Part shown: positions 5,129 through 57,443 of the stretch, piece after piece
How the letters are laid out: each line of letters begins with the position of its first letter
Numbering within the stretch: the stretch's first letter is position 1
Source of the DNA: Eledone cirrhosa
Lineage: Eukaryota
Direction: 5' to 3'
Assembly: GCA_964016885.1 (NCBI GenBank)
Contig: OZ024743.1
Span: forward strand, 358,546,001 to 358,610,000
Length of the DNA stretch: 64,000 nucleotides
The notes under the pieces: generated by a model
Seen by the model: the letters and a program-made list of their open reading frames with translations, nothing else
Database searches by the model: none
What the model was told of the DNA's origin: nothing
Made by a program: the position numbers and the translations under genes

Positions 5129-5145
5129 CACTTCCGCTCAGCCAT
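5129..5145 (+). promoter_or_regulatory. Putative ZNF2 promoter motif (ETS-like + YY1-like GCCAT)
   Basis: cacttccgctcagccat; related motif upstream of ZNF3 (17505) and ZNF4 (57427). Confidence 0.6.
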
Positions 5146-5539
5146 AACATTATATATATTTATATTTTTATCCAATGTGTGTGAGAATGAAGATAGGGGT
5201 AGATGTATGTATATAGTTCGTTTTTTGTATTTGTTTTGCAAGATTCTCGATGTGAAATCGTATTGAAACAGATATTATTATTATACATACTTATATCTAC
5301 CTCTATCTTTATTCAAACATACACACACGTCTTGGTCGGGTTTTTACATCTCTCTCTTGTTACAGTAAGGAAGGAAAGGCAATACCCATGACCCCTTTTC
5401 AGGCCTTCTGAGACCTGACTACTGGAAGGAAGGTATCCCGAGACCTAGTTCGAATGCTTGAGGGGATTCCGTTAAAAGCATCCAAAGACAAGGTGATCTT
5501 AAACCGGGTGAAGGATTAAGTTTACCACCATAGTACATT

Positions 5540-5760
5540 ACCACAGTGAACTCAGAACGCAAAACGTCGGAACAAATTCTGCAAGGCATTTTCGTCATGC
5601 TCACTCAGTCGTGTTTACTCACCGCCCTGGAATGATACTTTATTTTATCGACCTTTAAAGTATGGACCCTTAAAGAACGAAAGGCAAAATTGAGTCTGCG
5701 GGATTTGAACTCCGAGCGCAGAACAAACGACGCAATGCATTTTTATTTTACGCTCTAACG
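5540..5760 (-). mobile_element. Degenerate SINE fragments (MetaSINE-like)
   Basis: tactttattttatcgacc...aaaggcaaa...gggatttgaactc is the reverse complement of the SINE core. Confidence 0.55.
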
Positions 5761-6904
5761 AGATAGAGGTGTAAATATTGGTAGTAGAGGTAGAATTAAA
5801 AGTATATGTGTGAATATTGATAGAAATTAAGGTGATATATGTGAATATTGGTAGAAATAGATGTGAACAGAAGTGTGTATGTGTGTGTGTAAATATTGGT
5901 ATAATTATGAGTGTATTCTCATCATGATTTAACGTCTGTTCCTCCCGCTAATACAAACTTGTGTATATGCTATGCAATCGTGATCATTTTCCATTGTTGT
6001 AGTTCACTGTAGAAAGATGTATCCAAAATGACTTTCTGACCTACCAGACAGGCCGGGAGAAGGGAGGTCTTTATTATGCTTACATACAGTCTTATGTTCT
6101 ATCGTGTGCACAGCAGAGGTCATGTCTTTTGATACAAACTGAAAGGTCCTCACAACCCTTTGTTTGGCAAGCTTTCTACGGCTGGATGCCCTTTCTTAAA
6201 CAAGCCACTTTACAGATGTACTTGGTTCTTTTACTGTGTAAATCACCAGTATTACAGCGGTTATGTCCTTGACACAACTGAAGAACACTCCCAACTTTTT
6301 GTTTGGCAAGCTTTTTATGACTGGATACCCTTCCTATCACCAACCACTTGACGATGTGTACTGGGTGTGTTTATTGTGTAAGATCACGAACACTAGAAAG
6401 GTTGTGTCATTGACACAACTGAAGGGTACTGTCAATCTTTTTATGCATGGTTTTTACTGTGGGGGTACCCTTCTTGTTCAAACCACCCTTACCAGAGTGT
6501 ACCAGGTGCATTTGTGTGGGTCATAGATCCAACTATAGAGCGCTCTCTGCTCTGATGAGGAGGTGATAAGGAAAGGAGATAGGTATTAAGTTATAGGTGT
6601 ATGTGATGATTTGGCAGGGCGATGAGGAAGGGGTGGAGAGAGGAGATATAGTGGTGTGGGGGATGTGGTCAATAGATTGTGAGGAGGAGCAGTGATAGAG
6701 AAATAGGTAAGGGGTGGTAGTGTGGAGGTGCAGTAATGAGGATATCTAAGGGCTTTAGAAGGGGCGAGTAGCTAAGGAATGTTTCTGGAGTGCTAATGAA
6801 AGGGGTGGGCACACATGGATAGACCAGGACATATTGTATGCTTGTGGCTGGGTCAGTGTCACAGCATAGCACCAGCCCTGGCAACTGAAGGAATCTACTT
6901 TATG

Positions 6905-8110
6905 TGTTTTAGTGCTTAGTTCTCCAGTGCATCTTCCACATACAAAGTCTTATCTTTTCTGTTAATCTGCTAGCAATCCCTCTACATCTCTTATACATCC
7001 ATAGATAACAATGTGTGCACCTTACAGAACTACTGTGTGCCTCTTTCTGACATACCTGATGGTATTCTCTTTCCTACTTATTAATACTTTTGTCTTTAAG
7101 TTTACTTTTAGGCCTTTCAACTTTAGGTTCTTCTTCCATGCTTGAATTTTGCTTCTAATCCCCCTACGGATTTAGCTATGAGGACTAGGTCACCAGCATA
7201 TAAGAGCTCCCATTAGGTGCTAGTTTTAAACTTCTCAGTGATGGCCTGATAGACAATGATAAACAGCAGTGGACTGACGACTGAGCCCTGATGGACCCCA
7301 ACCTGCACTTCAAATTCATCACTGTACTTATTTCCAACTCTCACTCTGTTGGTTACTCCTTTATACATGGCTTGCATGGCCCTCACAAGCCATTCTTCTA
7401 TACCTAGCTTCCTAATTGCCCACCAAATTACAGAGCGTGGGACCCTGTCAAAAGCCAGATACAGTGGCTTACTCTTAGCTAAGTACCTCTCTTGTTGTTG
7501 TCTCACCAGAAAGAGGGCATCAGTAGTACTCCTGCTTGGCATAAATTAAAACTGCATCATGTCTAACTTATTTCTGTTCTTAATTAGTTGTGTTGTAACC
7601 CTTTCAGCAAATATTTTGACCTTGTCCTCTATAGTTACTTCTCTCTAGTGCGTTTCCTTTGTCCTTGTAGCAGTTTGCAATGATACTGTTGCACAAGTCA
7701 TTGTGTGCGACCCCTTCCTGTACTACTTGATTAACTGTGTGTCTGACTAGTGCATATCGTACCATGCTAGATGCTTTTAGTATCTCAGCAACTATACCAG
7801 GTGGTCCAGCTGCCTTCCCTACTTTCATGTCTTTAATTGCTTCATCTACCACATTGTTGTCAACTTTTATAGTTGGGTCTGTATGAGGTAGGCCCTCGCT
7901 GTTCCATTTATTCTCTCCATTCAGCAGTCTCATAGTAAGTCTTCCATGCTTAATTCTTTTTAGCATCAGACAGAACAAGTGCTCCACTATCATTTCAATG
8001 CACTTTTCCCCAACCACATCACAATTTTCTCTAACAAACCTTTTGATAACCCCAAACACTTCATGACACAGAACATGAGCAAATTTCTGGAGGAATAATC
8101 TAAATGTCAT
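6905..8110 (-). mobile_element. Decayed RTE-clade LINE RT fragment in putative ZNF2 intron
   Basis: Fragments MKVGKAAGP..GIVAE, ERSNYRG, STTDALFLVRQ, AFDRVPR, VGVHQGSVVSPLLF; stops and frameshifts. Confidence 0.85.
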
Positions 8111-8218
8111 ACAGAATTTATCCTTAAGCTGTATTGTAGTTCACTCCATTGCCTTATATGGAAGTAGATTCATCTATTACCAATAATATACTGTATTTCC
8201 AGGTACACTCTTAAATTT

Positions 8219-8236
8219 GTTTTCTTTAATTTCAGG
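8219..8236 (+). promoter_or_regulatory. Putative splice acceptor of the ZNF2 coding exon
   Basis: ttttctttaatttcag|g; identical acceptor before ZNF4 (59371) and similar before ZNF3 (19395). Confidence 0.65.
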
Positions 8237-8311
8237 ACTGGTATATTGAAAAGTCGAATCTTACCAATTTGTTTCTAGGTATTTTCTCTAACAAACATTA
8301 TTGATGAAAGA

Positions 8312-9430
8312 ATGTTTCAGAAACGGAGTAAACATCACAGCTGTGAAGTTTGTGGGAAAGTATTGTCTACCCACTTTAAATTATTGGCTCACCACCGTAC
8401 TCACACTGGAGAAAAACCATATAAATGTGAAACTTGTGGCAAAGCATTTTCACACCGTGGCTCCTTTTTATCTCATAAACGTGTTCACACAGGAGAAAGG
8501 CCATACCGCTGTGAAATTTGTGGGAAAACATTTACTTATATTGGTCACTTGACAAGACATAGACGGAGTCATACAGGAGAACGACCCTATATTTGTGCAA
8601 TTTGTGGAAAGACATTTCCTGATGTTACACGTTTAGCAGATCATAAACGTATTCATACAGGAGAAAAGCCCTACCAATGTGAATTTTGTGGGAAAGCATT
8701 TACTCTAAAGAATCAGGTAAAAGTTCATAAGCGTATCCACACGGGAGTTAAACCGTATCATTGTGACATTTGTGGGAAATCATTTGCTCAGAATGCCCAT
8801 TTAACGAGCCATAAACGTACTCACACGGGACAAAAATCATTCCACTGCGAAATTTGTGGGAAATCCTTTACCCAAAATAGTAGTTTATCTGTTCATAAAT
8901 ATACTCATTCTCAAGAAAAACTATACAACTGTGAAATTTGTGAGAAAACATTTTCTCATCGCCGTTTATTATCAAATCATGTACGTATTCACACGGGAGA
9001 AAAGCCATACCAATGTGAAACGTGTGGGAAATCATTTCGTAGGAATAGTTCTTTGTCTGTTCATAAACGGAGTCACACAGGTGAGAAGCCTTACCAATGT
9101 GCAATTTGCGGGAAAGCATTTCCTAGGAGTAGTAGCCTTTCAGCTCATGTACGCATTCACACTGGAGAAAAGCCATACCACTGTGAGCTGTGTGGAAAAT
9201 CATTCTCTGGAAAGCGTAGCCTTTCAAACCATCTACATTCTCACACAACAGAAAAACCACATCATTGTGAAATATGTGGAAAAACATATTCTCAGAAACG
9301 TTCTCTAACTATTCACACACGTATTCACACAGGAGAAAACCCTTTCCAATGTGATTTTTGTGGGAAAGGATTTTCTCGAAATAGTTATTTAGTGCATCAT
9401 AAGTGTATTAAGCTTGAAAAAAATCTATAA
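8312..9430 (+). CDS. Poly-C2H2 zinc finger protein (ZNF2-A), 12 canonical fingers + terminal atypical finger
   Basis: 372-aa intact ORF of tandem C2H2 fingers with TGEKPY linkers. Confidence 0.93.
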
Positions 9431-9506
9431 TACTCTGACATTTACATAAAAAACAATAATCTCTTTCTTTTTAAATGTAATTTACAAGTTAGGTTCACCA
9501 GAGAGA

Positions 9507-9543
9507 AATTGTGAAACAATTATTTTATAATTGTTTCACAATT
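9507..9543. other. Perfect 17-bp stem hairpin just downstream of the ZNF2 stop
   Basis: aattgtgaaacaattat-ttt-ataattgtttcacaatt. Confidence 0.8.
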
Positions 9544-9699
9544 GATCTTAATGTTTAAGGTCCTTCTTTGTAAACCATACTTATTTTAACAAGTATTTGC
9601 TCTAAACAGGATTCATTCATCTGATGAATATCCTACTGCAGAATTAGAAATATATTCACAAGTATGGAAATAATTATGTGCTTCTTTATCTTAAGTCCA

Positions 9700-10226
9700 A
9701 TAACAGTATATACACACATTATCAACTAGTAACAGTGTATACTTATATATACATACAGTCAACCAATAACTATATACACATTGTCAACAAGTTACAGTAT
9801 ATACATACAGTCAAATGATGATGATCAACTAATAACAGTATATACACACACATTAACAGCCAGTAACATTATATGTATACATTGTCAACTAAAAACACTA
9901 TAGACACACATTGTCAACCAGTAATAGTGTATATATACTTTATCAACCAGTAAGAGTGTATATATACATTGTCAACCTGTAATAGTGTATATATACATTG
10001 TCAACCTGTAATAGTGTATATATACATTGTCAACCTGTAATAGTGTATATATACATTGTCAACCTGTAATAGTGTATAGACACATTGTCAAACAATAACA
10101 GTATAGACACACATTATCAACCATTAACAGTGTATACTTATATATATATATATATACACAGTCAACCAGTAACAGTATATACACACATTGTCAACTACTA
10201 ATAGTATATACATACATTGTCAACTA
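9700..10226. repeat. 29-bp AT-rich minisatellite, copy A
   Basis: Unit attgtcaacctgtaatagtgtatatatac; consecutive starts at 9968, 9997, 10026 and 10055; degenerate flanks. Confidence 0.9.
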
Positions 10227-10302
10227 AGTGTATTCAGTCATATTTATTACAGTAAAGTTTGTGGAAAATAATTTCTTCAAATTATTAATTTAACTCATAA
10301 AC

Positions 10303-17010: not shown

Positions 17011-17504
17011 TGAGAATATAATATATATTACCAAATCCCGCCAATTTTTTTTTTTATATTTCCAAAATGACTTGAAAATCTCAGCATGTCTAATCAGAGG
17101 TAAACATAAATTGTAAAAGGTGAAACTGTTAGCTGAAAAGCGAACTAGAAATAGTTGTCACAGCTTAAACTTTCACCCATTCTTTATGGTTCTGTTTTTC
17201 TAATTTATTCATTTTGTAACCATATTCACCTAACTTTAACATGGAGTTGAGTCACAGAAATATTCGTTATTATAGAATGTTTTCTTAAAGTAATTTTATT
17301 ATTTATTAATTCAGCTGATACTGGCAAAAGATATTTTAAAAACGCTTACTCGGGATTACTGAAACGAAAAGGGTGAAACGAAAAATTTGAAAAAAAAAAA
17401 AAGTGTTTGTAGTTCTTGTTTACATTAACAGGAACATTAGAATTTATAGTAGTGACGATGTGAGAGTGTAAAACATATTTGACAATCTTACTCCAATGTC
17501 TTTT

Positions 17505-17521
17505 AACATCCGGTCAGCCAT
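17505..17521 (+). promoter_or_regulatory. Putative ZNF3 promoter motif
   Basis: aacatccggtcagccat, with a possible donor cag|gtgga about 35 bp downstream. Confidence 0.6.
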
Positions 17522-17989
17522 GTTTCACTGTTCCTTTGTTGTATTTAGAGACACAGGTGGAGGGAGAAAGGTCGAATGATGTGCCTTTGTGTATTTAGGG
17601 ATAAAACATACAGAAAAATGTGTTCGTGCGATAGAACAGATAGATGGTGATATATTGTGGTAAGCTAGCTTTCGTTTGACCTAGATAGTTATGTTGGTTG
17701 TTTAACGACTGTTGAGCGAAGAACAGACATTCTTTATTATTGTTTAACTCCATCCCCACTGCCTCTGACCAACTCTGATTCAACAGACCTATGATGGATC
17801 CTCCGACGTTTTTCGGTAATGAGAATACAAGTTGTTCAATCAATTGAACGTCCAAATCACGAATCGACGCTTAAGTGGTCCAGTATTCCATAACCCAGTG
17901 TATCTTTGATGTAATTTCCAAGTCGAAACAGCGTCACTCAATATGTGACAAAGCCAAACCTTTGAATTATCGATATAATCCATCCGACA

Positions 17990-18874: not shown

Positions 18875-18960
18875 TTTGTTCCATAATATTTTAAATTGGG
18901 TAAATTTATCATTTTTAATGAACATTGCAAATGCAATACATAAACAGATATTAGTCACAT

Positions 18961-19144: not shown

Positions 19145-19748
19145 CATCATATCACTGTCAATGATATATGTTACACATATCACTATTGAAGGTTCATCAT
19201 ACAGTCACATTACATAATGACATAGTACTACAGTCGATGACATCTTACAGTCATGTTACATAGTATCACTGTTGATGACTCATCTTACAGTCACATTAAA
19301 TAATATCACTGACGATGATATGTTTTACTTTCAATTACATGCTATGATTGGTTTTCATTAATTTCATGCTAAGATTGTTTTTTTTTTAATTACAGGGCAT
19401 TTGTGTTGAAAAAATGTGGAATTCCATGAGATGATGTAGTCATTGAACAATATTCAGTAAAATAAAAATGTGTAGTATTTATTGAAGTTATGCAAAACAC
19501 TTTTCTACTGTAGATAGTTATAACATGCCTAACATTACTGAGAAGTCATTTCATTATATACATAGACACATATATATGTATATGTGTGTGGGTGTGTATA
19601 TCTTAAATTGATAGAAACCACGTGATGGAGACAAGGACATTCTAAGTTCTACATCAACCGATTCTAATTGTAGAATCTGTTTAAAGAGGCACCTTGTCCT
19701 CAGACAAAAATATGAAGAAACAGTTGTTAGATCTTTATTATTCTGACA

Positions 19749-21362
19749 ATGTTTGAACCAGAAGAGAAACCTTACAGGTGTGATATCTGTGGGAATCTGT
19801 TTCCTATAAAGACTAACTTTGATGCTCATAAATGCAATCAGAAAAGTAAAAAGGTATACTATTGTGAATATTGTAGGAAAGCCTTTTATCGAAAATGTAC
19901 ATTAACAGATCATACACGTATTCACACAGGAGAAAAACCCTATCACTGTGAAATCTGTGGGAAGGCATTTTCTTTTAGTAGTAATTTGTCACGTCATATA
20001 CGTATTCACACAGGAGAAAAACCACATAACTGTGAAATCTGTGGGAAAGCATTTTCTTGTAATAGCACACTCTCATATCATAAACGCATTCACACAGGGA
20101 AACTACCGCATCACTGTCAAATCTGTGGGAAAGGATTTTCTTTTGTGAGTAAGTTAACTATTCATGTACGTATTCATACTGGAGAAAAACCCTACAATTG
20201 TGAAATTTGTGGTAAAGCTTTTTCTTGTAATAATAAATTGACATATCACAAACGTATTCACACGGGAGAAAAACCCTACCACTGTGAAATTTGTGGAAAA
20301 GCATTTATTTTCAATAATCATTTAGCTTATCATAAACGAACTCACACGGGAGAAAAACCATACCAGTGCAAAATTTGTGGTAAAGCATTTTCTTGTGGTA
20401 GTTACTTAAAGGATCATAAGCGTATACATACAGGAGAGAAACCATATGCTTGTGAGATCTGTGGGAAAGCATTTTCACGTAGTACACTGCTGTCAAGTCA
20501 TAAGCACAAGCATACTGGAAGAACACCATATCACTGTGGATTTTGTGGGAAAACATTCTCTCTGCAAAGTCAGTTATCCCTTCATAAAATCATTCACACA
20601 GGGAATGAACCATACTCTTGTGAAGTTTGTGGGAAAACATTTTCTTTAAAGAGTAGATTAACTTTTCATAAAGTTGTTCACACAGTAGAAAGGCCACTGG
20701 ATGGTGAGAATTGTGGAAAAACACTTTTAAAAACAGCTCAGTTGGAAGATCAAGAGATTATAATGACTGAAAAAGTTTACTGTTGTGAAATATGTGGAAA
20801 AATATTTTCTCGTAGCAGTAATTTAGCAGCTCATAGACGTCTTCATACAGGAGAAAATCTTTATCATTGTGAAATATGTGGGAAAACATTTTCTTGTAAT
20901 AGTAAATTGACTGATCATAAATGGAGTCACACAGGTGAAAAACCATACCATTGTGAAATATGTGAGAAATCATTTTCTCGAAAGTCTAATCTATCTCGTC
21001 ATAAACGTACTCATACTGGTGAAAAACCATACCAATGTGAATTTTGTGAGAAAGCATTTCATAGAAAGTGTCACTTATCAGAACACACACGTATTCATAC
21101 AGGAGAAAAACCATACCAGTGTGAAATTTGTGACAAAGCATTTTATAGAAAAGACCACTTAGCAGAGCATACACGTATTCACACGGGAGAAAAACCATAT
21201 CAGTGTGAAATATGTGATAAAGCTTTTTCTAGTAGCAGTCACTTATCATATCATATACGCATTCACACAGGAGAAAAACCATACCGATGTGAAATTTGTA
21301 GTGAAGCTTTTTCTAGGAACAGAAATTTAATACGTCATAAACAAATTCACACGAGAAAATAA
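19749..21362 (+). CDS. Poly-C2H2 zinc finger protein (ZNF3-A): 17 canonical fingers, one N-terminal C2HC-like, one dead internal finger
   Basis: 537-aa intact ORF; putative acceptor tttttttaattacag|g at 19395. Confidence 0.93.
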   Translation: MFEPEEKPYRCDICGNLFPIKTNFDAHKCNQKSKKVYYCEYCRKAFYRKCTLTDHTRIHTGEKPYHCEICGKAFSFSSNLSRHIRIHTGEKPHNCEICGKAFSCNSTLSYHKRIHTGKLPHHCQICGKGFSFVSKLTIHVRIHTGEKPYNCEICGKAFSCNNKLTYHKRIHTGEKPYHCEICGKAFIFNNHLAYHKRTHTGEKPYQCKICGKAFSCGSYLKDHKRIHTGEKPYACEICGKAFSRSTLLSSHKHKHTGRTPYHCGFCGKTFSLQSQLSLHKIIHTGNEPYSCEVCGKTFSLKSRLTFHKVVHTVERPLDGENCGKTLLKTAQLEDQEIIMTEKVYCCEICGKIFSRSSNLAAHRRLHTGENLYHCEICGKTFSCNSKLTDHKWSHTGEKPYHCEICEKSFSRKSNLSRHKRTHTGEKPYQCEFCEKAFHRKCHLSEHTRIHTGEKPYQCEICDKAFYRKDHLAEHTRIHTGEKPYQCEICDKAFSSSSHLSYHIRIHTGEKPYRCEICSEAFSRNRNLIRHKQIHTRK

Positions 21363-25927: not shown

Positions 25928-27341
25928 ATATGAAGCCAGGTGATTAAAAATCCAAAGTTGACATTTGTAACTGTTGATTTAAAGGCCCTCATGATCGAGT
26001 TCTTCAACCATATTCACTGTAGCGAGAACCCTATATGGGGGTTTCCCAAACAAACATCAAGGTATGTCATTCAGATCCCAGTCTATCAGTGTCATCAACA
26101 CCTAGTGCAAATAGAACAGGCCTAGAGGGGTCTCTGATTCCTGATGTGGAAAGAAGATTGGGAAGGCTCTCAATATGTCCTCCAAGCAAAATGGTAGAGC
26201 TCCGAGGTCCTCTCACAGATCTGAGGATGACATCACTCCCTATAGAATTGAATGACTTCTTGAGATGGAGTTTGAGGGCCTCAGGGGTGTTAGTAAATGT
26301 TCTCGTGGCATGGACGGTTATTTCACACCCTAATTTTTCGCCCACTCCCAACTGAACAAAGTAAAATTCCGAGATGTAGTGTGAGACTGATAATTCCGCA
26401 AACGCTTTCCATAAGGCGTCTAAAAGTGCACTATACAACAATGAGGCGAAAGTCACCATTTGACTTCATATGACTGAACAGTTTAGCGTCGAAGAACAAA
26501 GGGAGGATACTCTCAGAAGAGACCGTGTTCAAATGATTTAAAAAAACACTCATTCTGTGATATTTTGCTGAGATGTTTATATATTCTTTTCGGTACTAGA
26601 TAGTCCTTCTAGTGTCTCTCTTAACAAATTGTATCTTTTTAAATCTTTGTTTTTCTCCATAATGATAATTTTTACTATGAGCACGTTTTTTTTAGGGTAA
26701 GTGGCAATATTAAAACATTTTTGCGTGTCAAGTTCGCCTCAATTGAGCAGGCTCACTATTAAAGACATTCTAAGCGTGACCATTTCTTCTTTAGAGAAAC
26801 AATGTATCTAGTATTACATTATTGAATGTGTTCTTTCCCTCTTGAAATAAAGCAGGGTAACTATTTTTAACAGGTCGAATGACCATGTAGAAGCTCCCTT
26901 GGTGTCACATGCATGGATGGTATTGACATTTATTTATTTAATCAATTTAAACATCCGTGTAAATTTAGTAAACCATAACAGATTGGGAGAGGTATTTAAT
27001 AATCCTTATAATTAAGAAACAAAAACGGAGGCAAATGAAACAACAATAGCCGGTTGGTCATATAGCGAGAGTACTGGGTTGTATGAATGTAACAAAACGA
27101 GGCATGGTTTGTGTGTATAATATTTAATTAACAATGGTAGATAGTATAGTTGTCATGTCAAAGAAATAGATGATAGAATGAAACAAAGTTAGTCGTTACC
27201 GTTTTGATTGCCAGGCAAACGCGGCTGGCAGAGGACGCCTGGCTAAGGCCAGGCCAAATGAGAGGCAGAGAGCCGAGAGCTATTCGTTTTATAGGGCTCT
27301 GCTGGAAGTTACAGAAAGGGTTCTACTTCCCGTCTAGACGT

Positions 27342-29615
27342 CACCAAATTCCGGTCAGGAAGGAGGATATTCCGAAAACTGCAATTACAACCCCTTTCGG
27401 ATCATTCGAATTTTTGACCATGCCTTTCGGACTCAGGAACGCCGCTAGCACTTTTCAGCGGTTCATAGACGAGGTCACGCGTGGTCTGGACTTCGTCTAT
27501 GCTTACATAGACGATATTCTCGTCGCTAGTTCCTCTCCGGAAGAGCATATGCGCCACATGCTTCTCTTACTTCGGCGACTTCAGGATTACCGCGTTCGCG
27601 TGAATCCTGCAAAGTGTGTTTTCGTTTCCACTTCCCTACATTTTTTAGGCCACCTCATCGACGCCGAAGGTATTAGGCCGCTCCCTGAGCGAGTTCAAGC
27701 CATACAGGAGTTACCGCCGCCTACTACACTTAACCAGTTGCGTCACTTCTTAGGCCTAATCAATTTCTATAGGCGTTTCATTCCTCATTGTGCTAATTGG
27801 CTATCTTCCCTTACTGACATTTTTAAAAAACGTCGTAAGAAGAATGAAGACATTTCCTTGACACAAGGACAGCTTCAGGACTTCCAGTCTGCCAAGACAG
27901 CCCTCGCTAGTTCTTCTTTGCTAGCCCACCCGGTACCAGAGGCCAAGCTTTCGCTTTGTGTTGATGCATCTGATACCGCTGTGGGAGCAGTTTTACAGCA
28001 GTCTTACGCTGAAAACCAACAACCTTTGGCATTTTTCTCGAGGAAGTTGAAACCAGCAGAAACGCGTTATAGCACGTTTGGGCGGGAATTATTAGCCATA
28101 TATCTGTCGGTGAAACATTTCTCTCATATCCTTGAGGGGAGAAATTTTACGGTTTTTACCGACCACAAACCGTTGACCTTCGCTTTGAGGGCCAAAGCCG
28201 ACAGATATTCGCCCAGAGAGACAAGATACCTGGACTACGTTTCACAATTTACAAACGATATCCAGCACATTGCCGGCTCGCACAACATAGTTGCAGACGC
28301 ATTATCTCGTTTGCCAATTAGCTCCATCTCGTCATCCCAGGATATCGATTTAGGTCGTTTAGCTGCAGACCAACCTGCACTCCAATCGTTGGACACTCTT
28401 TCTACCGAATTTGCGACTTGCATTTTCAAATATCTGCCCTTGTCCACCACCGACAGGCAGATCCTTTGTGATGTATCCACTGATGCACCACGACCACTTG
28501 TTCCTGAGACTCACCGTCGAATAGTGTTTCTGGCTCTGCACAACATTTCTCATCCAAGATCTGCTGCCACAGTTAAACTCATAACAGCCAGATTCTTCTG
28601 GCCTAATATGAGGCGCGACATTGCTGTTTTTTGCCGTTCCTGTATCGCTTGCCAGAAATCGAAGATCCATAGACACATCCGGACTCCACTGGATACTTTC
28701 ACCACTCCAGATGCCCGGTTCCAACACATCCACATTGACATCGTTGGACCTTGGCCATTCAGCAGTGGATATTCCTACATATTGACGTGTGTCGATCGTT
28801 TTTCGCGATGGCCTGAAGCTATCCATTTACAAGACATGACTGCCGAGACTGTAGCACGTGCCCTGGTATCAGGGTGGATTACCCGCTTTGGGGTACCAAC
28901 TACACTCACCACAGACCGCGGTAGACAATTCGAGTCCCATCTCTTCTCTGAGCTCACCAAAATAATTGGAGCTCAACGGATTCGAACCACGGCCTATCAT
29001 CCTGCTTCAAATGGAATGGTGGAACGATTCCACCGCCAATTAAAGGCCGCTCTTCGCGCCTATCCAGACTCTCAACGTTGGAGCGAGTACCTTCCTATTG
29101 TGTTATTAGGAATTCGGTCATCAATAAAGGAGGACCTTGGGTTCTCCCCGGCCGAATTAATTTACGGTGCTCCTCTAGCGTTGCCTGGGCAAATGCTTGC
29201 CCCTGTTGATCTTGCTTTCCAAGATCCGCTTTCCTACGTATCCCGTCTGCGTTCTTATTTACAGGACCTGCCGCCGATGGATACGAGGAAGCAAACTGTA
29301 AAACATGCGGTCCCAAGGGACATTGCCTCGTGGACCCATGTGTTCGTAAGGAACGATGCTGTGAGACCACCCCTCACACACCCATACTCTGGACCCTACC
29401 GTGTGTTAGCACGCACTGATAAACATTTCACTGTAGACATTAAGGGGTCCAGAGAGACAATTTCGGTGGATAGACTGAAAAGGGCACACAATGACGCTCA
29501 TACACCCGAGCCACAAATACCCCAATCTTTCACCATTGTGCACACACCTGCTCCTTCTGCCCCACCTTCACCTACATACAAGACTACGACCCGTTCCGGT
29601 CGGAGAGTCCACTAG
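27342..29615 (+). CDS. Gypsy pol remnant: partial RT, RNase H, integrase (no internal stops)
   Basis: HQIPV...KTAITTPFG...MPFGLRNA...YIDDIL (RT); [23 protein letters not shown] (RH); H-H-C-C and HIDIVGP...[10 protein letters not shown]...NGMVERFHR (IN); GPY motif. The ORF track start at 27204 lies in non-coding LTR sequence. Confidence 0.9.
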
Positions 29616-31889: not shown

Positions 31890-32134
31890 CAGCTGCAGGA
31901 ATAATTAGTCATCAACGACAACGAGCTGTTAGCTGACGGAAGTGCTTGATGATGAAAGTTTTGGCGACAATATAGAAGGGGTTCGTACCTTAATTTTTCA
32001 CATATTACACTCAACATATGAAATGGTGATTGTTTAACTAATATCCGACAGTTTACAAAGTAAACACTTAACTGTAATCAATTGTTGTATTAGGGACATG
32101 AATGGGTATTTAGTATGACGATTTGTTTCGTCTG

Positions 32135-32151
32135 CACTTCCGCTCAGCCAT
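32135..32151 (+). promoter_or_regulatory. Putative ZNF2-B promoter motif
   Basis: cacttccgctcagccat. Confidence 0.55.
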
Positions 32152-33884
32152 AACATTATATATATTTATATTTTTATCCAATGTGTGTGAGAATGAAGAT
32201 AGGGGTAGATGTATGTATATAGTTCGTTTTTTGTATTTGTTTTGCAAGATTCTCGATGTGAAATCGTATTGAAACAGATATTATTATTATACATACTTAT
32301 ATTTACCTCTATCTTTATTCAAACATACACAAACGGCTTGGTCGGGTTTTTACATCTCTCTCTTGTTACAGTAAGGAAGGAAAGGCAATACCCATGACCC
32401 CTTTTCAGGCCTTCTGAGACCTGACTACTGGAAGGAAGGTATCCCGAGACCTAGTTCGAATGCTTGAGGGGATTCCGTTAAAAGCATCCAAAGACAAGGT
32501 CGTCTTAAACCGGGTGAAGGATTAAGTTTACCACCATAGTACATTACCACAGTGAACTCAGAACGCAAAACGTCGGAACAAATTCTGCAAGGCATTCTCG
32601 TCATGCTCACTCAGTCCTGTTTACTTACCGCCCTGGGATGATACTTTATTTTATCGACCTTTAAAGTATGGACCCTTAAAGAACGAAAGGCAAAATTGAG
32701 CGCAGAACAAACGACGCAATGCATTTTTATTTTACGCTCTAACGAGATAGAGGTGTAAATATTGGTAGTAGAGGTAGAATTAAAAGTATATGTGTGAATA
32801 TTGATAGAAATTAAGGTGATATATGTGAATATTGGTAGAAATAGATGTGAACAGAAGTGTGTATGTGTGTGTGTAAATATTGGTAGAATTATGAGCGTAT
32901 TCTCATCATGATTTAACGTCTGTTCCTCCCGCTAATACAAACTAGTGTATATGCTATGCAATCGTGATCATTTTCCATTGTTGTAGTTCACTGTAGAAAG
33001 ATGTATCCAAAATGACTTTCTGACCTACCAGACAGGCCGGGAGAAGAGAGGTCTTTATTATGCTTACATACAGTCTTATGTTCTATCGTGTGCACAGCAG
33101 AGGTCATGTCTTTTGATACAAACTGAAAGGTCCTCACAATCCTTTGTTTGGCAAGCTTTCTACGGCTGGATGCCCTTTCTTAAACAAGCCACTTTACAGA
33201 TGGACTTTACTGTATAAATCACCAGTATTACAGCGGTTATGTCCTTGACACAACTGAAGAACACTCCCAACTTTTTGTTTGGCAAGCTTTTTATGACTGG
33301 ATACCCTTCCTATCACCAACCACTTGACGATGTGTACTGGGTGTGTTTATTGTGTAAGATCACGAACACTAGAAAGGTTGTGTCATTGACACAACTGAAG
33401 GGTACTGTCAATCTTTTTATGCATGGTTTTTACTGTGGGGGTACCCTTCTTGTTCAAACCACCCTTACCAGAGTGTACCAGGTGCATTTGTGTGGGTCAT
33501 AGATCCAACTATAGAGCGCTCTCTGCTCTGATGAGGAGGTGATAAGGAAAGGAGATAGGTATTAAGTTATAGGTGTATGTGATGATTTGGCAGGGCGATG
33601 AGGAAGGGGTGGAGAGAGGAGATATAGTGGTGTGGGGGATGTGGTCAATAGATTGTGAGGAGGAGCAGTGATAGAGAAATAGGTAAGGGGTGGTAGTGTG
33701 GAGGTGCAGTAATGAGGATATCTAAGGGCTTTAGAAGGGGCGAGTAGCTAAGGAATGTTTCTGGAGTGCTAATGAAAGGGGTGGGCACACATGGATAGAC
33801 CAGGACATATTGTATGCTTGTGGCTGGGTCAGTGTCACAGCATAGCACCAGCCCTGGCAACTGAAGGAATCTACTTTATGTGTT

Positions 33885-35285: not shown

Positions 35286-36429
<1,144 letters not shown>

Positions 36430-38293: not shown

Positions 38294-38843
<550 letters not shown>

Positions 38844-44950: not shown

Positions 44951-45193
44951 GCTGCAGGAATAATTAGTCATCAACGACAACGTGCTGTGAGCTGACGGAA
45001 GTGCTTGATGATGAAAGTTTTGGCGACAATATAGAAGGGGTTCGTACCTTAATTTTTCACATATTACACTCAACATATGAAATGGTGATTGTTTAACTAA
45101 TATCCGACAGTTTACAAAGTAAACACTTAACTGTAATCAATTGTTGTATTAGGGACATGAATGGGTATTTAGTATGACGATTTGTTTCGTCTG

Positions 45194-45210
45194 CACTTCC
45201 GCTCAGCCAT
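45194..45210 (+). promoter_or_regulatory. Putative ZNF2-C promoter motif
   Basis: cacttccgctcagccat. Confidence 0.55.
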
Positions 45211-46526
45211 AACATTATATATATTTATATTTTTATCCAATGTGTGTGAGAATGAAGATAGGGGTAGATGTATGTATATAGTTCGTTTTTTGTATTTGTT
45301 TTGCAAGATTCTCGATGTGAAATCGTATTGAAACAGATATTATTATTATACATACTTATATTTACCTCTATCTTTATTCAAACATACACACACGTCTTGG
45401 TCGGGTTTTTACATCTCTCTCTTGTTACAGTAAGGAAGGAAAGGCAATACCCATGACACCTTTTCAGGCCTTCTGAGACCTGACTACTGGAAGGAAGGTA
45501 TCCGGAGACCTAGTTCGAATGCTTGAGGAGATTCCGTTAAAAGTATCCAAATACAATGTGGTCTTAAACCGGGTGAAGGATTAAGTTTACCACCATAGTA
45601 CATTACAACAGTGAACTCAGAACGCAAAACGTCGGAACAAAATCTGCAAGGCATTTTCGTCAGGCTCACTCAGTCCTGTTTACTCACCGCCCTGGGATGA
45701 TACTTTATTTTATCGACCATTAAAGAACGAAAGGCAAAATTGAGTCTGCGGGATTTGAACTCCGAGCGCAGAACAAACGACGCAATGCATTTTTATTTTA
45801 CGCTCTAACGAGATAGAGGTGTAAATATTGGTAGTAGAGGTAGAATTAAAAGTATATGTGAATATTGATAGAAATTAAAGTGATATATGTGAATATTGGT
45901 AGAAATAGATGTGAACAGAAGTGTGTATGTGTGTGTGTAAATATTGGTAGAATTATGAGTGTATTCTCATCATGATTTAACGTCTGTTCCTCCCGCTAAT
46001 ACAAACTAGTGTATATGCTATGCAATCGTGATCATTTTCCATTGTTGTAGTTCACTGTAGAAAGATGTATCCAAAATGACTTTCTGACCTACCAGACAGG
46101 CCGGAGGGGAGGGAGGTCTTTATTATGCTTACATACAGTCTTATGTTCTATCGTGTGCACAGCAGAGGTCATGTCTTTTGATACAAACTGAAAGGTCCTC
46201 ACAACCCTTTGTTTGTCAAGCTTTCTACGGCTGGATGCCCTTTCTTAAACAAGCCACTTTACAGATGGACTTGGTTCTTTTACTGTGTAAATCACCAGTA
46301 TTACAGCGGTTATGTCCTTGACACAACTGAAGAACTTCCCAAAGTTTTGTTTGGCAAGCTTTTTATGATTGGATGCCCTTCCTATCACCAACCACTTGAC
46401 GATGTGTACTGGGTGTGTTTATTGTGTAGATCACGAACACTAGAAAGGTTGTGTCATTGACACAACTGAAGGGTACACTCAATCTTTTTATGCATGCTTT
46501 TTACTGTGGGGTACCCTTCTTGTTCA

Positions 46527-47777: not shown

Positions 47778-48464
47778 ATGTTTCAGAAACGGAGTAAACA
47801 GCACAGCTGTGAAATTTGTGGGAAAGTATTGTCCTCCCACTGTAAATTATTGGCTCACCACCGTACTCACACTGGAGAAAAACCATATAAATGTGAAACT
47901 TGTGGCAAAGCATTTTCACACCATGGCTCCGTTTTATCTCATAAACGTGTTCACACAGGAGAAAGGCCATACCGTTGTGAAATTTGTGGGAAAACATTTA
48001 CTTTTAATGGTCACTTGACAAGACATAGACGGTGTCATACAGGAGAACGACCCTATGTTTGTGCAATCTGTGAAAAGACATTTACTGATGTTACACATTT
48101 AACAGATCATAAACGTATTCATACAGGAGAAAAGCCCTACCAATGTGAATTTTGTGGGAAAGCATTTACTCTAATGAATCAGGTAAAAGTTCATAAGCGA
48201 ATCCATACGGGAATTAAACCGTATCATTGTGACATTTGTGGGAAATCATTTGCTCAAAATGCCCATTTAACGGGCCATAAACGTACTCACACAGGAGAAA
48301 AATCATTCCACTGCGAAATTGGTGGGAAATCCTTTACCCAAAATAGTAGTTTATCTGTTCACACGGGAGAAAACCCTTTCCAATGTGATTTTTGTGGGAA
48401 AGGATTTTCTCGAAATAGTTATTTAGTGCATCATAAGTGTATTAAGCTTGAAAAAAATCTATAA
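47778..48464 (+). CDS. ZNF2-C: shortened in-frame paralog (6 intact fingers, broken finger 7, terminal finger)
   Basis: 228 codons from ATG; 432-nt in-frame deletion relative to ZNF2-A joins SLSVH to TGENPFQC; acceptor at 47711 retained. Confidence 0.7.
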   Translation: MFQKRSKQHSCEICGKVLSSHCKLLAHHRTHTGEKPYKCETCGKAFSHHGSVLSHKRVHTGERPYRCEICGKTFTFNGHLTRHRRCHTGERPYVCAICEKTFTDVTHLTDHKRIHTGEKPYQCEFCGKAFTLMNQVKVHKRIHTGIKPYHCDICGKSFAQNAHLTGHKRTHTGEKSFHCEIGGKSFTQNSSLSVHTGENPFQCDFCGKGFSRNSYLVHHKCIKLEKNL

Positions 48465-51051: not shown

Positions 51052-52278
<1,227 letters not shown>

Positions 52279-52411
52279 ACAACTATAAAAATTATGAAAG
52301 TGCCTTCTCATTTAGATAGAGAATTGTGCATTGGAATTTGTGATATATTTTTTCTAAATGCAAGGATAATTGTCATTTACCAATCTACTTTTTAAATTTT
52401 CTTTTATATTT

Positions 52412-52686
52412 GTAAATGTGAAGTTATGTTGGTACCACAACATCCAGTCCAAAACAAATGAGGTCGTGTAGGTGTCACGACAAAAAAAACACACAGTCCA
52501 CGCTGTAATGTGGCCATGTAGGTAACACGGTAAAAACCTCCCAGTCCACACTGTAAACGTGGTTGGTGTTGGGAAGGGCATCCAGCCGTAGAAAACCCGC
52601 CAGACAACAAATCTTGCCTCAAGTGGGAAAACTCCCGTCCAAACCCATGCAAGCGTGGAAGATGGACGTTAAATGATGATGATGAT
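52412..52686 (+). mobile_element. SINE with V-SINE-like core and (ATG)n tail; C-specific insertion
   Basis: gggaagggcatccagccgtagaaa...ccatgcaagcgtggaa...atgatgatgatgat; absent at 21495 and ~38975. Confidence 0.75.
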
Positions 52687-53226
52687 TTTATATAAATTAA
52701 AATAAAACTAATTTATTAGGTAAATTTTAGTGAGACACACATGTACACCAGATCCAAACACAGAAACCTAACTCCCACTGTCACCGCCTCTGTCTCTCCC
52801 CATCTCTCATTATGAGCAAATGGGGGGAGGGGGATGTGCAGGCCACCCCACGGCTCTGGCAGACAGAATAAAGAAAGTGTTTCCGCAGAGGATGGTGAGG
52901 GAGATATGCTGGAAGAGCCATTACAGCTCGTGAGGCTGGAAAGAAATGTAGTAAGCATGCTTCAATGGATATGTAATGTTAATATGCATGAACAACAAAG
53001 CATGGATGAGCTGAGGGAAAAGAGGAATCAGATATAGCGTGCAGGAGAGAAAACTGCTGGTGTGGATGGACATGTGATGCATGTGAGTGATGATTGTTGC
53101 AAAGAAGTGCCAAGAAATCCCAATGGAATTGTGAAGCAACACTTAAACGACACTTAAAACCTTTCAATATCAAAATATTATTTGCTTATTTCTCAGACAT
53201 AAAATAAAGAGTAGACTTATATTTGG

Positions 53227-53347
53227 ATCAGCTTATAGAGTAATCCTTTTTTTTTTTATATTTCAATGCCTTGTACAGTATCAATTTTTTTTATTATGTT
53301 ACCTAATAAATCAACTATTCTTTAATTAAATGTTATGTAATACTTCT
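53227..53347 (+). repeat. Junction repeat R, terminal copy
   Basis: Matches 2682-2801, then diverges. Confidence 0.9.
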
Positions 53348-53349
53348 TA

Positions 53350-53686
53350 ATCAGTGAACGACCAAGCATAGACGAGTTGAGAAAGAAACTGGATGTAAGA
53401 GGGATAAGTTGTGGTGTGCAGGAGAGAAGGCTGAGATGGTATGGAAATGTGATGCGCATGGAGGATGACCGCTGGGTAAAGAAGTGCCAAGAAATCCCAG
53501 TAGAAGGAAGACACAGTAGAGGTAGACCACGTAAAACATGGGTGGAGGTGGTGAGAGCAGACCTCAGATCGCTGAAACTCACCGAGGAGATGAAGAAGGA
53601 ACGTGACAAGTGGAGGGATGCTGTGCTGAATAGGACCCATCCAACCCTTGCAAGCAGGGAAAAGCGGACGTAAAATGATGATGATT
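53350..53686 (+). mobile_element. RTE LINE 3' end
   Basis: LRKKLDVRGISCGVQERRLRWYGNVMRMEDDRWVKKC...RGRPRKTW; (atg)n tail. Confidence 0.85.
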
Positions 53687-54313
53687 AGGGTGTTGGATTA
53701 AATGCCTTGGTATACCTTCCACTCTGTGTTCTGAGTCCAAATCCTGCAGAAGTCAACTTTGCTTTTCATCCTTGGTGGTGATGGTGGGTAGGTGTAGTTA
53801 GGGCATAAATAAAGTACTAACTTAGGGTCAGTGGTCTGGCAGAATTGTTAAAGTCAGATGGGATACTTTTCTAGCTCTAAGTTTTTAGTTCAAGTACCAC
53901 CTCTTGTGGAAAAGCAGACACTATCAGCAATGCTAAGACAAATGAAAATGTAGTTTCCTTAGTCTAATCTGATAATCGGTCATTTCACTTCTTTTAATGG
54001 CGACTGTGAAGAAAAACTTTTTTCTATTTTTTACTTTTTCCAAAGTCCCCATACAATAATGGATAGTTAATCCAAAAGATTTTGGGAATATTAAATTGCT
54101 AAGTTAACTTTCAGTTCTTTCTTCCTTTTATTTTATTTTCTCTTTACATTCCCTTCTGACTAATTCTAACCCACATGCGTTTCACAGTTTTCTAAATAAA
54201 CAGTTTTTATTTTTGTTATTTTTTCATCTTGATGTTCTGCAACTATTGTCATTTTGTTAATATGCCCTGATGAAGTTAGCTACTTCATCTAGTCACATAT
54301 TGTATAATATAGT

Positions 54314-54448
54314 TTCTACTTTTGGCACAAGGCCAGCGATTACCCCAGTGCATCACTGGTACTTAATTTTATCAACCTCGTAAGGATGAAAGGTAAAGTT
54401 AACCTCAGTGGATTTGAACTCGGAACGCAAAGGGTTATACCATATTAT
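54314..54448 (-). mobile_element. Truncated MetaSINE-like SINE with TSD
   Basis: Direct repeat acatattgtataatatagt at 54295-54313 and 54449-54467. Confidence 0.8.
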
Positions 54449-54969
54449 ACATATTGTATAATATAGTATTTATCGAGCAAGTATTGCAGAAACATCTGTA
54501 GGAATTAATGATTTAACCTCAGCTATTGTTTTTACTTGTAATCATACTGTGTAACTACCGCACTTGAAAAAATAAGTACTGGGATCGATATAATCGACTA
54601 AAGGGTGGTGTCCTAGCATGGTTACAGTTTAATGCCCTAAACAAGTATGAGAGAAAAATGAAAACAAAAATATAACTAAACAAAATAAAAAAAAGATAAA
54701 AACATAAGCATGAGGAAACAATGTAAAGTGGGGGTGATAAGAGCATTAGTCCCATGCAGGCATAGTTATTAATCATTTTGTCATGTCTATCAGTTCTATA
54801 AAGGTTGGAATCCTGTTGTTAAAAGACAGATAATGCAATGTTGAAAGACAGATAATGTTAAAAGACAGATAATGACATGGGTGGTAAATGCTGAAGCTGG
54901 AGAGAAATGAAGCAAACATGCTCTGTTGAATGTGTAATGTTGCTGTATGCCAAAAGTAGAAACAGTTAT

Positions 54970-55277
54970 TATGCATGAACGATGGAGGTGTGGATTAACT
55001 GAAGAGAAAAACTGGATATAAAAGGAATCAGATTTAGTGTAAAGAGAGAAAACTGTGCTAGTATGAACATGTGATGCATATGGATGATGATCTCTGGGTG
55101 AAGTGGCAGGAGATACCAGTAGAAGGAAGCTACAGTAGTGGAAGAACTAGGCAGAGGTAATTAGAACCAATCTCAAAACAGTGAACCTCACAGAGGAGAT
55201 GACCAAGCAAGGTTGTGCTGGAGAGGACCCATCAAAGCCAAGCAAGTATGGAACAGCAGATGTAAAATGATGATGAA
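54970..55277 (+). mobile_element. Decayed RTE LINE 3' end
   Basis: Similar to 53350-53686; atgatgatga tail. Confidence 0.65.
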
Positions 55278-57426
55278 TATTAATCCAGATTACATGTAAT
55301 AAAGTTTTTACTGTGGTTGTAGTCATAAAAGCTGATGGAGTTTATCTCTAATTACCTATTATTGTAAAGCATACTCAGGGTTTACAGTATAAATAAGATG
55401 AACTCTAAAAGATAAAGAATCGGAAAGAAAAGGAGACTATAAACATATGGAGAAATTTTCTTCATTTAATTTCTATTTTTCCATGCATGGCTTTGACCAG
55501 TGTCATGTTATAAAACAAGTCAAACCACATCTTAATCATACAGATCTGTATTTTGGCTTGGTTTCTATGGTTGGATGCCCTTCCTAATGCCAACCATGTT
55601 AATGTGGACTGAGTGCTGTTTATCATTGTACCAAAACGACTTAACAGTGGATCATGTCACTATCATGACTACCTTATTGGGTGCTTTTTTAAAAATTGAT
55701 ATTGAAATAAATAAAATTTAAAAAATATGAATACAAAAAAACAATTGTGTTAAAATCTATAATTAGATCATTATAGAAACCTAAATTCGTCAGTAAAGTA
55801 TATATATAGTGCATGACACCTGAGATAGGTTAAGGTGACAAAATCAGTAAACACTGATAATGATACACTAATACTGTGTAGAGCTGACAAACTATTTTCA
55901 AACACTAAGCCTACTCAAAAACTTTTAATCCGGCTGTAACCGGCCACTCATACTGATGTTAAGATATTGTTCTCAAAATAAATAATATGGAAATCTCATA
56001 CATTCGATATTATGTAAGGTAAAGCTTTACTGTGAAAATATTGAATAATGTAAATGCTAAAGCGTTAAAGATAAAAAATAATGAATAGATCACTGACACT
56101 GCTTTAAAAGTGTCCATCCAATCTAAAACATGTTAGCCCAGCTCTTGCATATTTCATACTAACATACAGATATATATAAATGTTTAACTATGATTATTAT
56201 TAATGTACTTCAAATCCCGCTGAGGTTAACTCTGGTTTCATCCTTATGGAGTCAATAAAATAAAAGGCTTTGTGGCAAAAAGTAAAAAATTATTAGTGTA
56301 CATGGGTATGTAGAAATATTCTTTAGTCTACAGAAAGTGTTAAAAATCTGATAGTTGCAATTTATAATCAGCTTGTTCCGTTTATTGACTATTGTATTCT
56401 TACTTAACTAAAGGACCTATGCCATCAGCAACATTTAATTTTTGGCGGCCAGCATTCGTGTACTATATATCGTGTGTGTGTGCATATATATACATATATG
56501 GTTTATTAGTAATCAGTTTTTGTTACTAGAATCTATGAATCTTAGTAGCATGGATTGAGGACTTTCAGTATACAGTTGTTTCTGACTGAACATATGGACT
56601 TCTGCTTGAAGTTGTTCTTAGGGTGATCTTCTGAAGGTACTAATTATAATTAGACAATAAGTTACATGAAAACACCATTCATTGTACAAGAAGGAAAAGC
56701 ATTTATTGCATAATGTTTACATATGTTTCATTAATATGAGAAATTATTGCATCTAGAAAACACTAACCCGATTTCAGAAGCTCCCGCATCTTGCGACGCA
56801 CGAGGCAATCATAGTGTAGTAGTTATGTTGTTGGCTTGATGGGTGGTTATGTATAAGGTAGCCTTGTCCCATATAAAGCGCTGTATGAAATGCCGATGAA
56901 TGAACAAATAAAACATGATCGCTACTTAAATATATTTATTAATTTGGTAACCTGCTACGATGTTATTGTTGATAATGTAAAAAAACAAGGCTTGAGTTGT
57001 GGTGTATTCAAAAGATACTATTTATCGTACTTCTGTAATGTGATGATTTTTGGCCTGGCAGTGAGAGAGAAACCTAAAGGGATCTATGTAAGACAGTGGA
57101 CCACATCTTAATTGCTCGGAAAGTATCAAATTATTACTGTTCCATATGTATGTATTGATGTTATTTAGACTGCTCTACCCTGATCCAGTACGCATATGAT
57201 CAAAGTCAATCTAGTAGTGACCATCCTGTCTTTTTTTCCCATGTGTCTATGATTACGTTATCAAATTTATTTCCTTATTTGAGACAGCAGTGTATAGTTT
57301 AAGGGAAATATAGTTGCTACTTCTAACACGTAGAGCAAAAAAGCTTATGTTTATGCGTGAACAATATCGTAATTTATTAAAACAATAAAGATTTATTTAA
57401 GAGTATTTATCGGTCAGTTTGGTCTT

Positions 57427-57443
57427 CACTTCCGGTCAGCCAT
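57427..57443 (+). promoter_or_regulatory. Putative ZNF4 promoter motif
   Basis: cacttccggtcagccat (perfect ETS CCGGAAGTG on the minus strand); possible donor aag|gtgaa at ~57487. Confidence 0.62.

What the first reader, a model, noticed from the sequence alone, without database searches (positions are those of the whole stretch)
5129..57443. One 17-bp ETS+YY1-like motif sits upstream of every ZNF gene: a candidate shared promoter code
Seen: (C/A)AC(T/A)TCCG(G/C)TCAGCCAT at 5129, 17505 and 57427, 1.9-3.1 kb upstream of the acceptors of three divergent genes whose surrounding DNA does not otherwise align by eye. It is also in the duplicates at 32135 and 45194. It is always sense, and at 17505 and 57427 a GT donor-like site follows within ~45 bp. 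All genes also share a TTTAATT(T/A)CAG|G acceptor. Known: CCGGAAGT is the ETS/GABP core and GCCAT the YY1/Pho core; both cluster near TATA-less start sites. Inference: the cluster uses one conserved architecture (motif, tiny non-coding exon, TE-filled intron, finger-only exon) that could co-regulate the expanded ZNF family. ZNF1's upstream region is outside the window.
Basis: partly seen in the sequence, partly recalled or inferred. Interest (0 to 1): 0.75.

Follow-up and report, generated by a model that had tools for sequence, protein, structure and literature searches.

The report
Shared promoter of zinc-finger subfamily
A roughly 40-base DNA element sits in front of about 18 scattered zinc-finger genes in a large animal genome (likely an octopus) but was absent from 60 other zinc-finger genes sampled; it is likely their inherited start-of-transcription switch, an ordinary kind of promoter and not a code for the whole family.

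Summary
The 17-mer is real: 5 exact copies, all sense, 0 expected. Only three are independent. It is the core of a ~40-bp element: an upstream T-rich box, TCT, a full ETS site (ACTTCCGGT), then YATA.

The element lies 0.9-3.2 kb upstream of same-strand C2H2 arrays in five clusters on three chromosomes (17 of 27 arrays), and 6.9 kb upstream of one more. Flanks are at background identity. It is not family-wide: 0 of 60 motif-blind ZNF loci carry it.

The YY1 reading fails: GCCAT in 7 of 15 copies, GCCATNTT in 1 of 15; YATA in 12 of 15. Contigs of one run imply a splice 57606 to 59372, so exon 1 is about 165 nt, not 45.

Best reading: a TATA-less ETS plus initiator core promoter inherited by gene duplication in one dispersed ZNF subfamily. 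The start site is unmapped. The scan noted shared front ends of other ZNF subfamilies in this genome, but no look-alike of this element.

The parts
57410..57449 (+). Best copy of the ~40-bp element (upstream box, TCT, ETS site ACTTCCGGT at 57428-57436, CATA at 57441-57444) in front of ZNF6
   Evidence: (PWM 58.8)
57444..57606 (+). Predicted non-coding exon 1 of ZNF6. Start is inferred. A contig of run X4 is aligned at 57542-57604, and its spare letters imply about 57504-57606.
   Evidence: table 8 record 9
57607..59371 (+). Intron 1 of ZNF6 (GTAAGT...TTTCAG), containing dispersed repeats
   Evidence: donor 11.9 bits; contig branch at 59370-59399
59372..60914 (+). Exon 2 of ZNF6: leader, then a 369-aa ORF with 13 C2H2 fingers (59838-60902)
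5112..5151 (+). Element copy before ZNF2 (ETS variant ACTTCCGCT)
   Evidence: PWM 51.5
8225..9430 (+). Acceptor and finger-only exon of ZNF2 (12 fingers)
17488..17527 (+). Element copy before ZNF3: core only (ETS variant ACATCCGGT), upstream box lost; the only copy with GCCATNTT
   Evidence: (leave-one-out score 0.3)
17660..17665 (+). Predicted exon-1 donor of ZNF3 (GTG|GTAAGC, +154 from the ETS site)
   Evidence: prediction only
19385..21362 (+). Acceptor, leader and finger exon of ZNF3 (17 fingers)
32118..32157 (+). Duplicate of the 5129 copy, before a frameshifted ZNF2 duplicate (35352-36327)
45177..45216 (+). Duplicate of the 5129 copy, before a shortened ZNF2 duplicate (47808-48290)
240..1391 (+). 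ZNF1 (14 fingers). Its element (ETS site followed by TCATTCATA) lies at window position -925, G000:C4:358545075.
38387..38769 (+). 5'-truncated ZNF3 duplicate without the element
51063..52266 (+). 5'-truncated ZNF3 duplicate without the element

Best explanation
The motif is the centre of a ~40-bp element found upstream of about 18 related C2H2 zinc-finger genes, and it is likely their TATA-less core promoter, inherited when an ancestral gene was duplicated and likely kept by selection while its flanks diverged. An ETS-family factor is predicted to bind ACTTCCGGT. RNA polymerase II is predicted to start about 6 bases downstream at the CA/TA dinucleotide of YATA, an initiator-like site; TCA directly after the ETS site is an alternative start. 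A 150-260-nt non-coding exon is spliced over a 0.5-3-kb intron to a single finger-coding exon. Shown: location, orientation, conservation, restriction to one subfamily, downstream donor bias. Inferred from one run's contigs: the ZNF6 splice. Predicted, untested: ETS binding, the start site, any function of the upstream box.
For: (1) Footprint: mean pairwise identity is 0.68 in the 40-bp element against 0.44-0.49 in eight flanking 40-bp windows, over 15 independent copies. (2) Linkage: of 9 strong copies found by motif alone outside the window region (L049-L055, L200, L158), 8 have a same-strand C2H2 array 0.9-6.9 kb downstream. The ninth lies in a different repeat. The 89%-identical ZNF6 paralog on C6, found by protein, also has the element. 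(3) Polarity: a donor of 8 bits or more lies at +140..+270 in 10 of 15 copies, against 0-2 of 15 in four control windows. (4) Run X4: record 9 aligns to 57542-57604 with 30 spare letters; records 15 and 16 branch at 59370-59399; the bin depth of 10 is reproduced exactly if those 30 letters lie in exon 2. This joins AG|GTAAGT at 57606 to the acceptor. (5) All 15 copies keep the GGA(A/T) core and 9 of 15 are exact ACCGGAAGT. The GGAT variant is one that ETS proteins accept (PMC2905244 passage). (6) YATA in 12 of 15 and BBCABW in 10 of 15 (consensus from PMC5287114). No TATAWA in the 30 bp upstream of the ETS site in 15 of 15. CpG o/e is 0.71-0.84 around the element against 0.47 in flanks and 0.32 just before the fingers.
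Against: No start-site data. Run X4 is not on record as RNA, the joint is not among the rows printed in table 5, and only one gene was laid. Copies were anchored on the ETS site, so its conservation is partly built in. BBCA+1TA is an under-represented initiator variant in human. Finger sequences do not group element-bearing genes cleanly: many best hits at 70-75% are to motif-blind genes, so one clade is inferred from shared leaders and donors, not shown by a tree. Ten of 27 cluster arrays lack a recognisable copy, two counted copies are weak (PWM 10.2 and 13.3), and orphan copies exist with no array within 8 kb (C4:339851098, C6:59983549).
Confidence: 0.7

Rival explanations
1. One reading: an ETS+YY1 composite code shared by the whole expanded ZNF family.
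For: GCCAT follows the ETS site in all 5 window copies and in 7 of 15 independent copies. The 17505 copy matches 8 of 9 positions of CGCCATNTT.
Against: 0 of 60 motif-blind ZNF loci have the element in 0.9-9.5 kb upstream, and sense ACTTCCGG occurs in 1 of 60. 0 of 5 C26 arrays have it. GCCATNTT occurs in 1 of 15. A at position 8 sharply lowers YY1 binding and T at position 9 is required (PMC1904287 passages); the usual copy reads GCCATAAC.
Confidence: 0.05
2. The element is a dedicated subfamily switch: the upstream box (TATCGRTTAGTTT) plus the ETS site is read by a specific factor that co-regulates these dispersed genes, beyond housekeeping initiation.
For: The box at -20..-8 is conserved at fixed spacing (T-14, T-13, G-11, T-10, T-9 in 12-13 of 15; T-5 and T-3 in 15 of 15) on three chromosomes, while finger DNA is only about 70-78% identical between most members.
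Against: Conservation of a whole core promoter after duplication is expected without a dedicated factor. The box is lost at 17505. Octopus C2H2 paralogs of one clade fall in different co-expression modules (PMC12513265 section 14).
Confidence: 0.17
3. The element is a relic of a transposon promoter captured by the ancestral gene, or a repeat fragment without present function.
For: A ~400-bp dispersed repeat with a sharp 5' end carries a core one base different (family B; 2620 first-look candidates; 70 exact hits of the TTAG variant, of which 3 were checked). A second repeat (family C) and two sites in the window's retroelement insertion also carry ACTTCCGGT.
Against: Profiles of B and C match family-A flanks essentially only over the 20-30-bp core (B best E 0.036; C best E 7e-4 over 25 nt, one 67-nt match at E 0.003). 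Family-A copies are confined to sense positions upstream of ZNFs, unlike B, which lies upstream, downstream and far from arrays. Sharp conservation against diverged flanks argues for function.
Confidence: 0.08

Closest known systems
ETS (class I, GABP/ELK-type) TATA-less core promoters, including dual ETS-initiator sites (ProCapNet, bioRxiv 10.1101/2024.05.28.596138; passages read)
   Same: Full ACCGGAAGT site at the predicted start of a TATA-less, CpG-retaining promoter, with a CA/TA initiator-like site next to it.
   Different: Here it is embedded in a fixed 40-bp element shared by paralogs in an invertebrate. No start-site data. The predicted initiator lies beside, not inside, the ETS site.
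Mouse V1R promoters (PMC1955453; abstract read)
   Same: Promoter regions conserved within subfamilies of an expanded gene family, with short motifs near start sites.
   Different: V1R conserved regions are about 1 kb and the motifs reach about 90% of genes across subfamilies. Here the footprint is 40 bp and limited to one subfamily.
Clustered protocadherin conserved sequence element (CSE, a CTCF site; PMC7811963 passages)
   Same: One short oriented motif at a similar distance upstream of each paralog.
   Different: The CSE serves enhancer looping and stochastic choice within one locus. This element is ETS-like, dispersed over chromosomes, and has no CGCT box in most copies.
Zebrafish FZNF promoter classes (sharp TATA and broad TATA-less; PMC10547256 passage) and cephalopod C2H2 expansions (PMC12513265; abstract and section 14 read)
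   Same: Subsets of a lineage-specific poly-ZNF expansion sharing a promoter architecture; finger-only genes in clusters.
   Different: The cephalopod paper has no occurrence of 'promoter', 'upstream' or 'motif'; this element is not described there.

Membership tests
ETS binding site (class I) | GGA(A/T) core with ACC/GT flanks | tested here: met
   Core in 15 of 15, exact ACCGGAAGT in 9 of 15; copies were anchored on it. GGAT tolerated. The full class I consensus is recalled, not read in a call.
ETS binding site (class I) | Bound by an ETS protein | not testable with these tools
   Needs EMSA, ChIP or CUT&RUN.
YY1/Pho site | CGCCATNTT, with T at positions 8 and 9 | tested here: not met
   GCCATNTT in 1 of 15, GCCAT in 7 of 15; requirement from PMC1904287.
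Initiator (BBCA+1BW / YR) | Consensus match in fixed register | tested here: met
   BBCABW in 10 of 15, YATA in 12 of 15. The motif is short and the copies are related, so this is weak.
Initiator (BBCA+1BW / YR) | Transcription starts at the A | not testable with these tools
   Only contigs were available; they cannot show a start.
Core promoter with non-coding first exon | Spliced RNA from just downstream of the element to the coding exon | tested here: inconclusive
   Strongly implied for ZNF6 by contig geometry and depth arithmetic; joint not printed, run kind not on record, one gene.
Core promoter with non-coding first exon | Splice donor downstream, not upstream | tested here: met
   10 of 15 at +140..+270 against 0-2 of 15 in four controls; donor matrix numbers recalled.
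TATA-less promoter | No TATA box about 30 bp upstream of the predicted start | tested here: met
   0 of 15 have TATAWA in the 30 bp upstream of the ETS site.
Family-wide ZNF promoter code | Present upstream of most C2H2 genes | tested here: not met
   0 of 60 motif-blind loci; 17 of 27 arrays only within member clusters.
Dispersed repeat / transposon fragment | Many copies unlinked to genes, with homologous flanks | tested here: not met
   14 distinct sequences score 20 or more in all fetched DNA, 13 of them ZNF-linked; flanks at background identity; loose-pattern hits 108 against control 88.
One ZNF clade | Members form a monophyletic group | tested here: inconclusive
   Nearest-neighbour identity of finger DNA is mixed; leader, acceptor and donor similarity is seen in subsets. 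No tree was built.

The most novel reading that the evidence does not exclude
The 40-bp element is a subfamily-specific promoter badge. An undescribed upstream box (TATCGRTTAGTTT-N-GTCT) locked to an ETS site is read by a dedicated factor, possibly one of the zinc-finger proteins themselves, and switches on about 20 dispersed, otherwise diverged ZNF genes together. The octopus ZNF expansion would then be organised as promoter-defined regulons, each subfamily with its own front end.
Probability: 0.17. Interest if true: 0.62.

Novelty: new member of a known kind. Interest (0 to 1): 0.35.

Why it matters
Regulation of the cephalopod C2H2 expansion is unstudied at promoter level in the papers found. 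This gives a precise 40-bp target, a predicted start site and a list of about 18 genes, so one reporter series and one CAGE run could test whether shared promoters make paralogs co-expressed, against the report that paralogs split into different modules (PMC12513265). It also shows the expansion has no single promoter. The kind of thing, a paralog-conserved ETS core promoter, is ordinary.

Tried and rejected
- Exact 17-mer genome-wide: 7 hits. The two outside the window (C11, C14) have no finger within 1.5 kb and match the ~1.1-1.3 expected by chance.
- 14-mer search: 21 hits, control 3; only 3 new ones were family members.
- Of 20 loose-pattern candidates fetched, 18 had no ZNF array; one was a clear member (L200) and one a degenerate site 2.1 kb before a 3-finger array (L208).
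- Of 10 further candidate loci, none had a ZNF array.
- DNA search with the ZNF3 acceptor region found only itself.
- Protein search gave only distant ZNFs (35-53% identity in the listed hits, mostly vertebrate), so no taxon name.
- Metagenome scan: 0 hits.
- No RNA holder was listed as such.
- Run X4 has no cover over the motif itself or just upstream of it; a hole proves nothing.
- No profile search of the whole genome was made, so the copy number is a lower bound from pattern searches.
- DRE, Myb and Drosophila Motif 1 readings of the upstream box (motifs recalled) were considered; the key positions vary between copies, so none was adopted.
- Literature searches for this element and scan look-ups found no description. 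Subscription journals are largely not held, and no supplements were read.
Full report
Setting. The window is G000:C4:358546001-358610000 in a 3.0-Gb assembly with 64,334 candidate C2H2 fingers. An octopod is inferred from this and from earlier scan notes; the protein search named no cephalopod. The window holds eight plus-strand finger arrays.

Observation. The 17-mer occurs exactly five times, all sense, with none expected. Three copies lie in 95-96% duplicates, so three are independent. Acceptors follow at 1.9-3.1 kb. The genes are paralogs with alignable acceptor and leader regions (70% over 318 nt; 78% over 65 nt), so the shared acceptor is descent. ZNF1 has a degenerate copy at -925. Two 5'-truncated ZNF3 duplicates and the next array to the right have none.

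The real unit is longer. Genome-wide the exact 17-mer has 7 hits, two at chance level. Relaxing it showed a ~40-bp element. All 20 loci that lie outside the window region and were new were fetched (three of them already seen as short loci). Seven carry the extended flank, on C4 (235 and 339 Mb), C6 and C22, and 7 of 7 have a same-strand array 0.9-2.6 kb downstream. Of the other 13, five are copies of a separate repeat (two of them near arrays) and eight have no array. Walking five clusters (804 kb in all) gave the element before 17 of 27 arrays, two of them weak. One more member lies at C4:51.3 Mb, 6.9 kb before 16 fingers. That makes about 18 genes, a lower bound. Across all fetched DNA, 14 distinct sequences score 20 or more, 10 of them the training set. 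Thirteen are ZNF-linked (with L149's array shown); the exception belongs to another repeat.

It is not family-wide. Sixty loci were chosen from the 150 listed PF00096 hits without regard to the motif (biased to high-scoring fingers and to C27 and C18). None has the element in the 0.9-9.5 kb available upstream. The best score with a softer matrix, 11.0, was the repeat look-alike. Sense ACTTCCGG occurs once in their 286 kb, 12 times in 127 kb upstream of the cluster arrays, and twice in 384 kb of background. ZNF6's 89%-identical paralog on C6 has the element; the C26 cluster holding its 57%-identical relatives does not (0 of 5 arrays).

Anatomy. Over 15 independent copies, identity is 0.68 in the element and 0.44-0.49 in eight flanking windows. 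The best-kept positions are T-5, C-4, T-3, the ETS site and A15, T16, A17. All keep GGA(A/T), and nine are exact ACCGGAAGT. The copies were anchored on this site, which inflates its conservation. ETS proteins bind GGAT cores about as well as GGAA (PMC2905244, passages). GCCAT is present in 7 of 15 although several searches required it, and GCCATNTT in 1 of 15. YY1 needs T at positions 8 and 9 of CGCCATNTT (PMC1904287, passages), and the usual copy reads GCCATAAC. What persists is YATA (12 of 15), fitting the initiator BBCA+1BW in 10 of 15, though BBCA+1TA is under-represented in human (PMC5287114, passages). In human promoters ETS sites drive initiation rate and can double as initiators (ProCapNet preprint, passages). 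No TATA box is present, and CpG is retained around the element.

First exon. Strong donors fall at +140..+270 in 10 of 15 copies against 0-2 in controls, often in a similar context. Contigs were laid on ZNF6 only. Run X4, whose kind is not on record, has a 131-letter record aligned at 57542-57604 with 30 letters left over on the 3' side, just before AG|GTAAGT at 57606. Two other records meet at 59370-59399, at the acceptor. The depth of 10 in that bin is 8.86 without those 30 letters and 10.0 with them. I infer a 57606 to 59372 splice; the joint is not among the printed rows. This puts DNA downstream of the +45 GT inside exon 1, so that GT is not used in this molecule. The start itself is not shown.

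Repeats. A ~400-bp dispersed repeat (family B) with a fixed 5' end carries a core one base different. A second repeat (C) also has ACTTCCGGT. Neither aligns convincingly to family-A flanks beyond the core. B lies upstream in 3 of the 60 blind loci and downstream of or far from arrays elsewhere. A transposon origin is not excluded but is unsupported.

Mechanism. Most likely (0.7) an ancestral two-exon ZNF gene had an ETS plus initiator TATA-less promoter, and duplication spread the whole unit. Introns, flanks and fingers then diverged while selection kept 40 bp. ETS binding, the start site and the role of the upstream box are predictions. A dedicated co-regulating factor (0.17) is the bold reading; against it, octopus C2H2 paralogs of one clade split among co-expression modules (PMC12513265, abstract and section 14). 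The family-wide ETS+YY1 code is rejected (0.05).

What was seen of papers. Abstract only: PMC1955453. Passages: PMC2905244, PMC1904287, PMC5287114, PMC7811963, PMC10547256, PMC12988792 and the ProCapNet preprint. Abstract, word search and section 14: PMC12513265. Others appeared as listings only. No supplements were read. Searches found no description of this element.

Verdict. A real, well-defined promoter footprint of one dispersed ZNF subfamily: a new member of a known kind, interest 0.35.

Noticed in passing
window 4929-4941 (minus strand), and its duplicates near 31.9 kb and 45.0 kb: An inverted look-alike of the motif (CACTTCCGTCAGC) about 190 bp upstream of the 5129 copy; possibly a divergent start or the relic of a head-to-head partner promoter.
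   Followed up: partly
L149 (G000:C6:59990351 minus, 59990851 plus): Two element copies 500 bp apart, back to back, each facing its own ZNF array: a candidate bidirectional promoter pair.
   Followed up: partly
L059:7830-8200 and many copies (C18 5-12 Mb, C28, C9, C27): Family B: a ~400-bp repeat with a fixed 5' end and an ETS-like core one base from the motif, 95-99% identical among the top 40 hits, many in ZNF clusters. Helitron-like 5' end by recollection only.
   Followed up: partly
L158, L169, L224, L225: Family C: another dispersed repeat of at least 150 bp with ACTTCCGGT followed by an initiator-like word.
   Followed up: partly
window ~30380 (plus) and ~31260 (minus): Two sites in the retroelement insertion pair ACTTCCGGTCA with a TATA-like box 6-8 bases later; they look like LTR promoters. 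An 812-aa retrotransposon pol-like ORF (reverse transcriptase and integrase by inspection) lies at 27177-29615.
   Followed up: no
window 57444-59808: The predicted ZNF6 mRNA leader is about 600 nt with 14 upstream ATGs, one spanning the splice junction (23 codons).
   Followed up: no
G000:C4:339851098 (minus, L165) and C6:59983549 (minus, L148): Orphan element copies with no array within 8 kb; the C4 one is followed by an exon-1-like stretch and a donor, 28 kb upstream of an array that has no element of its own.
   Followed up: partly
L082, L092, L107, L110 (C27) and similar in L093, L103, L108: Several motif-blind ZNF loci share a different upstream block, about 1.3 kb before the fingers in the C27 copies, suggesting each subfamily has its own front end.
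   Followed up: no
G000:C4:235207359, 235209691, 235277388: Three copies of the upstream box with a broken ETS core (ACTTCCTC) in the C4 235-Mb cluster.
   Followed up: no
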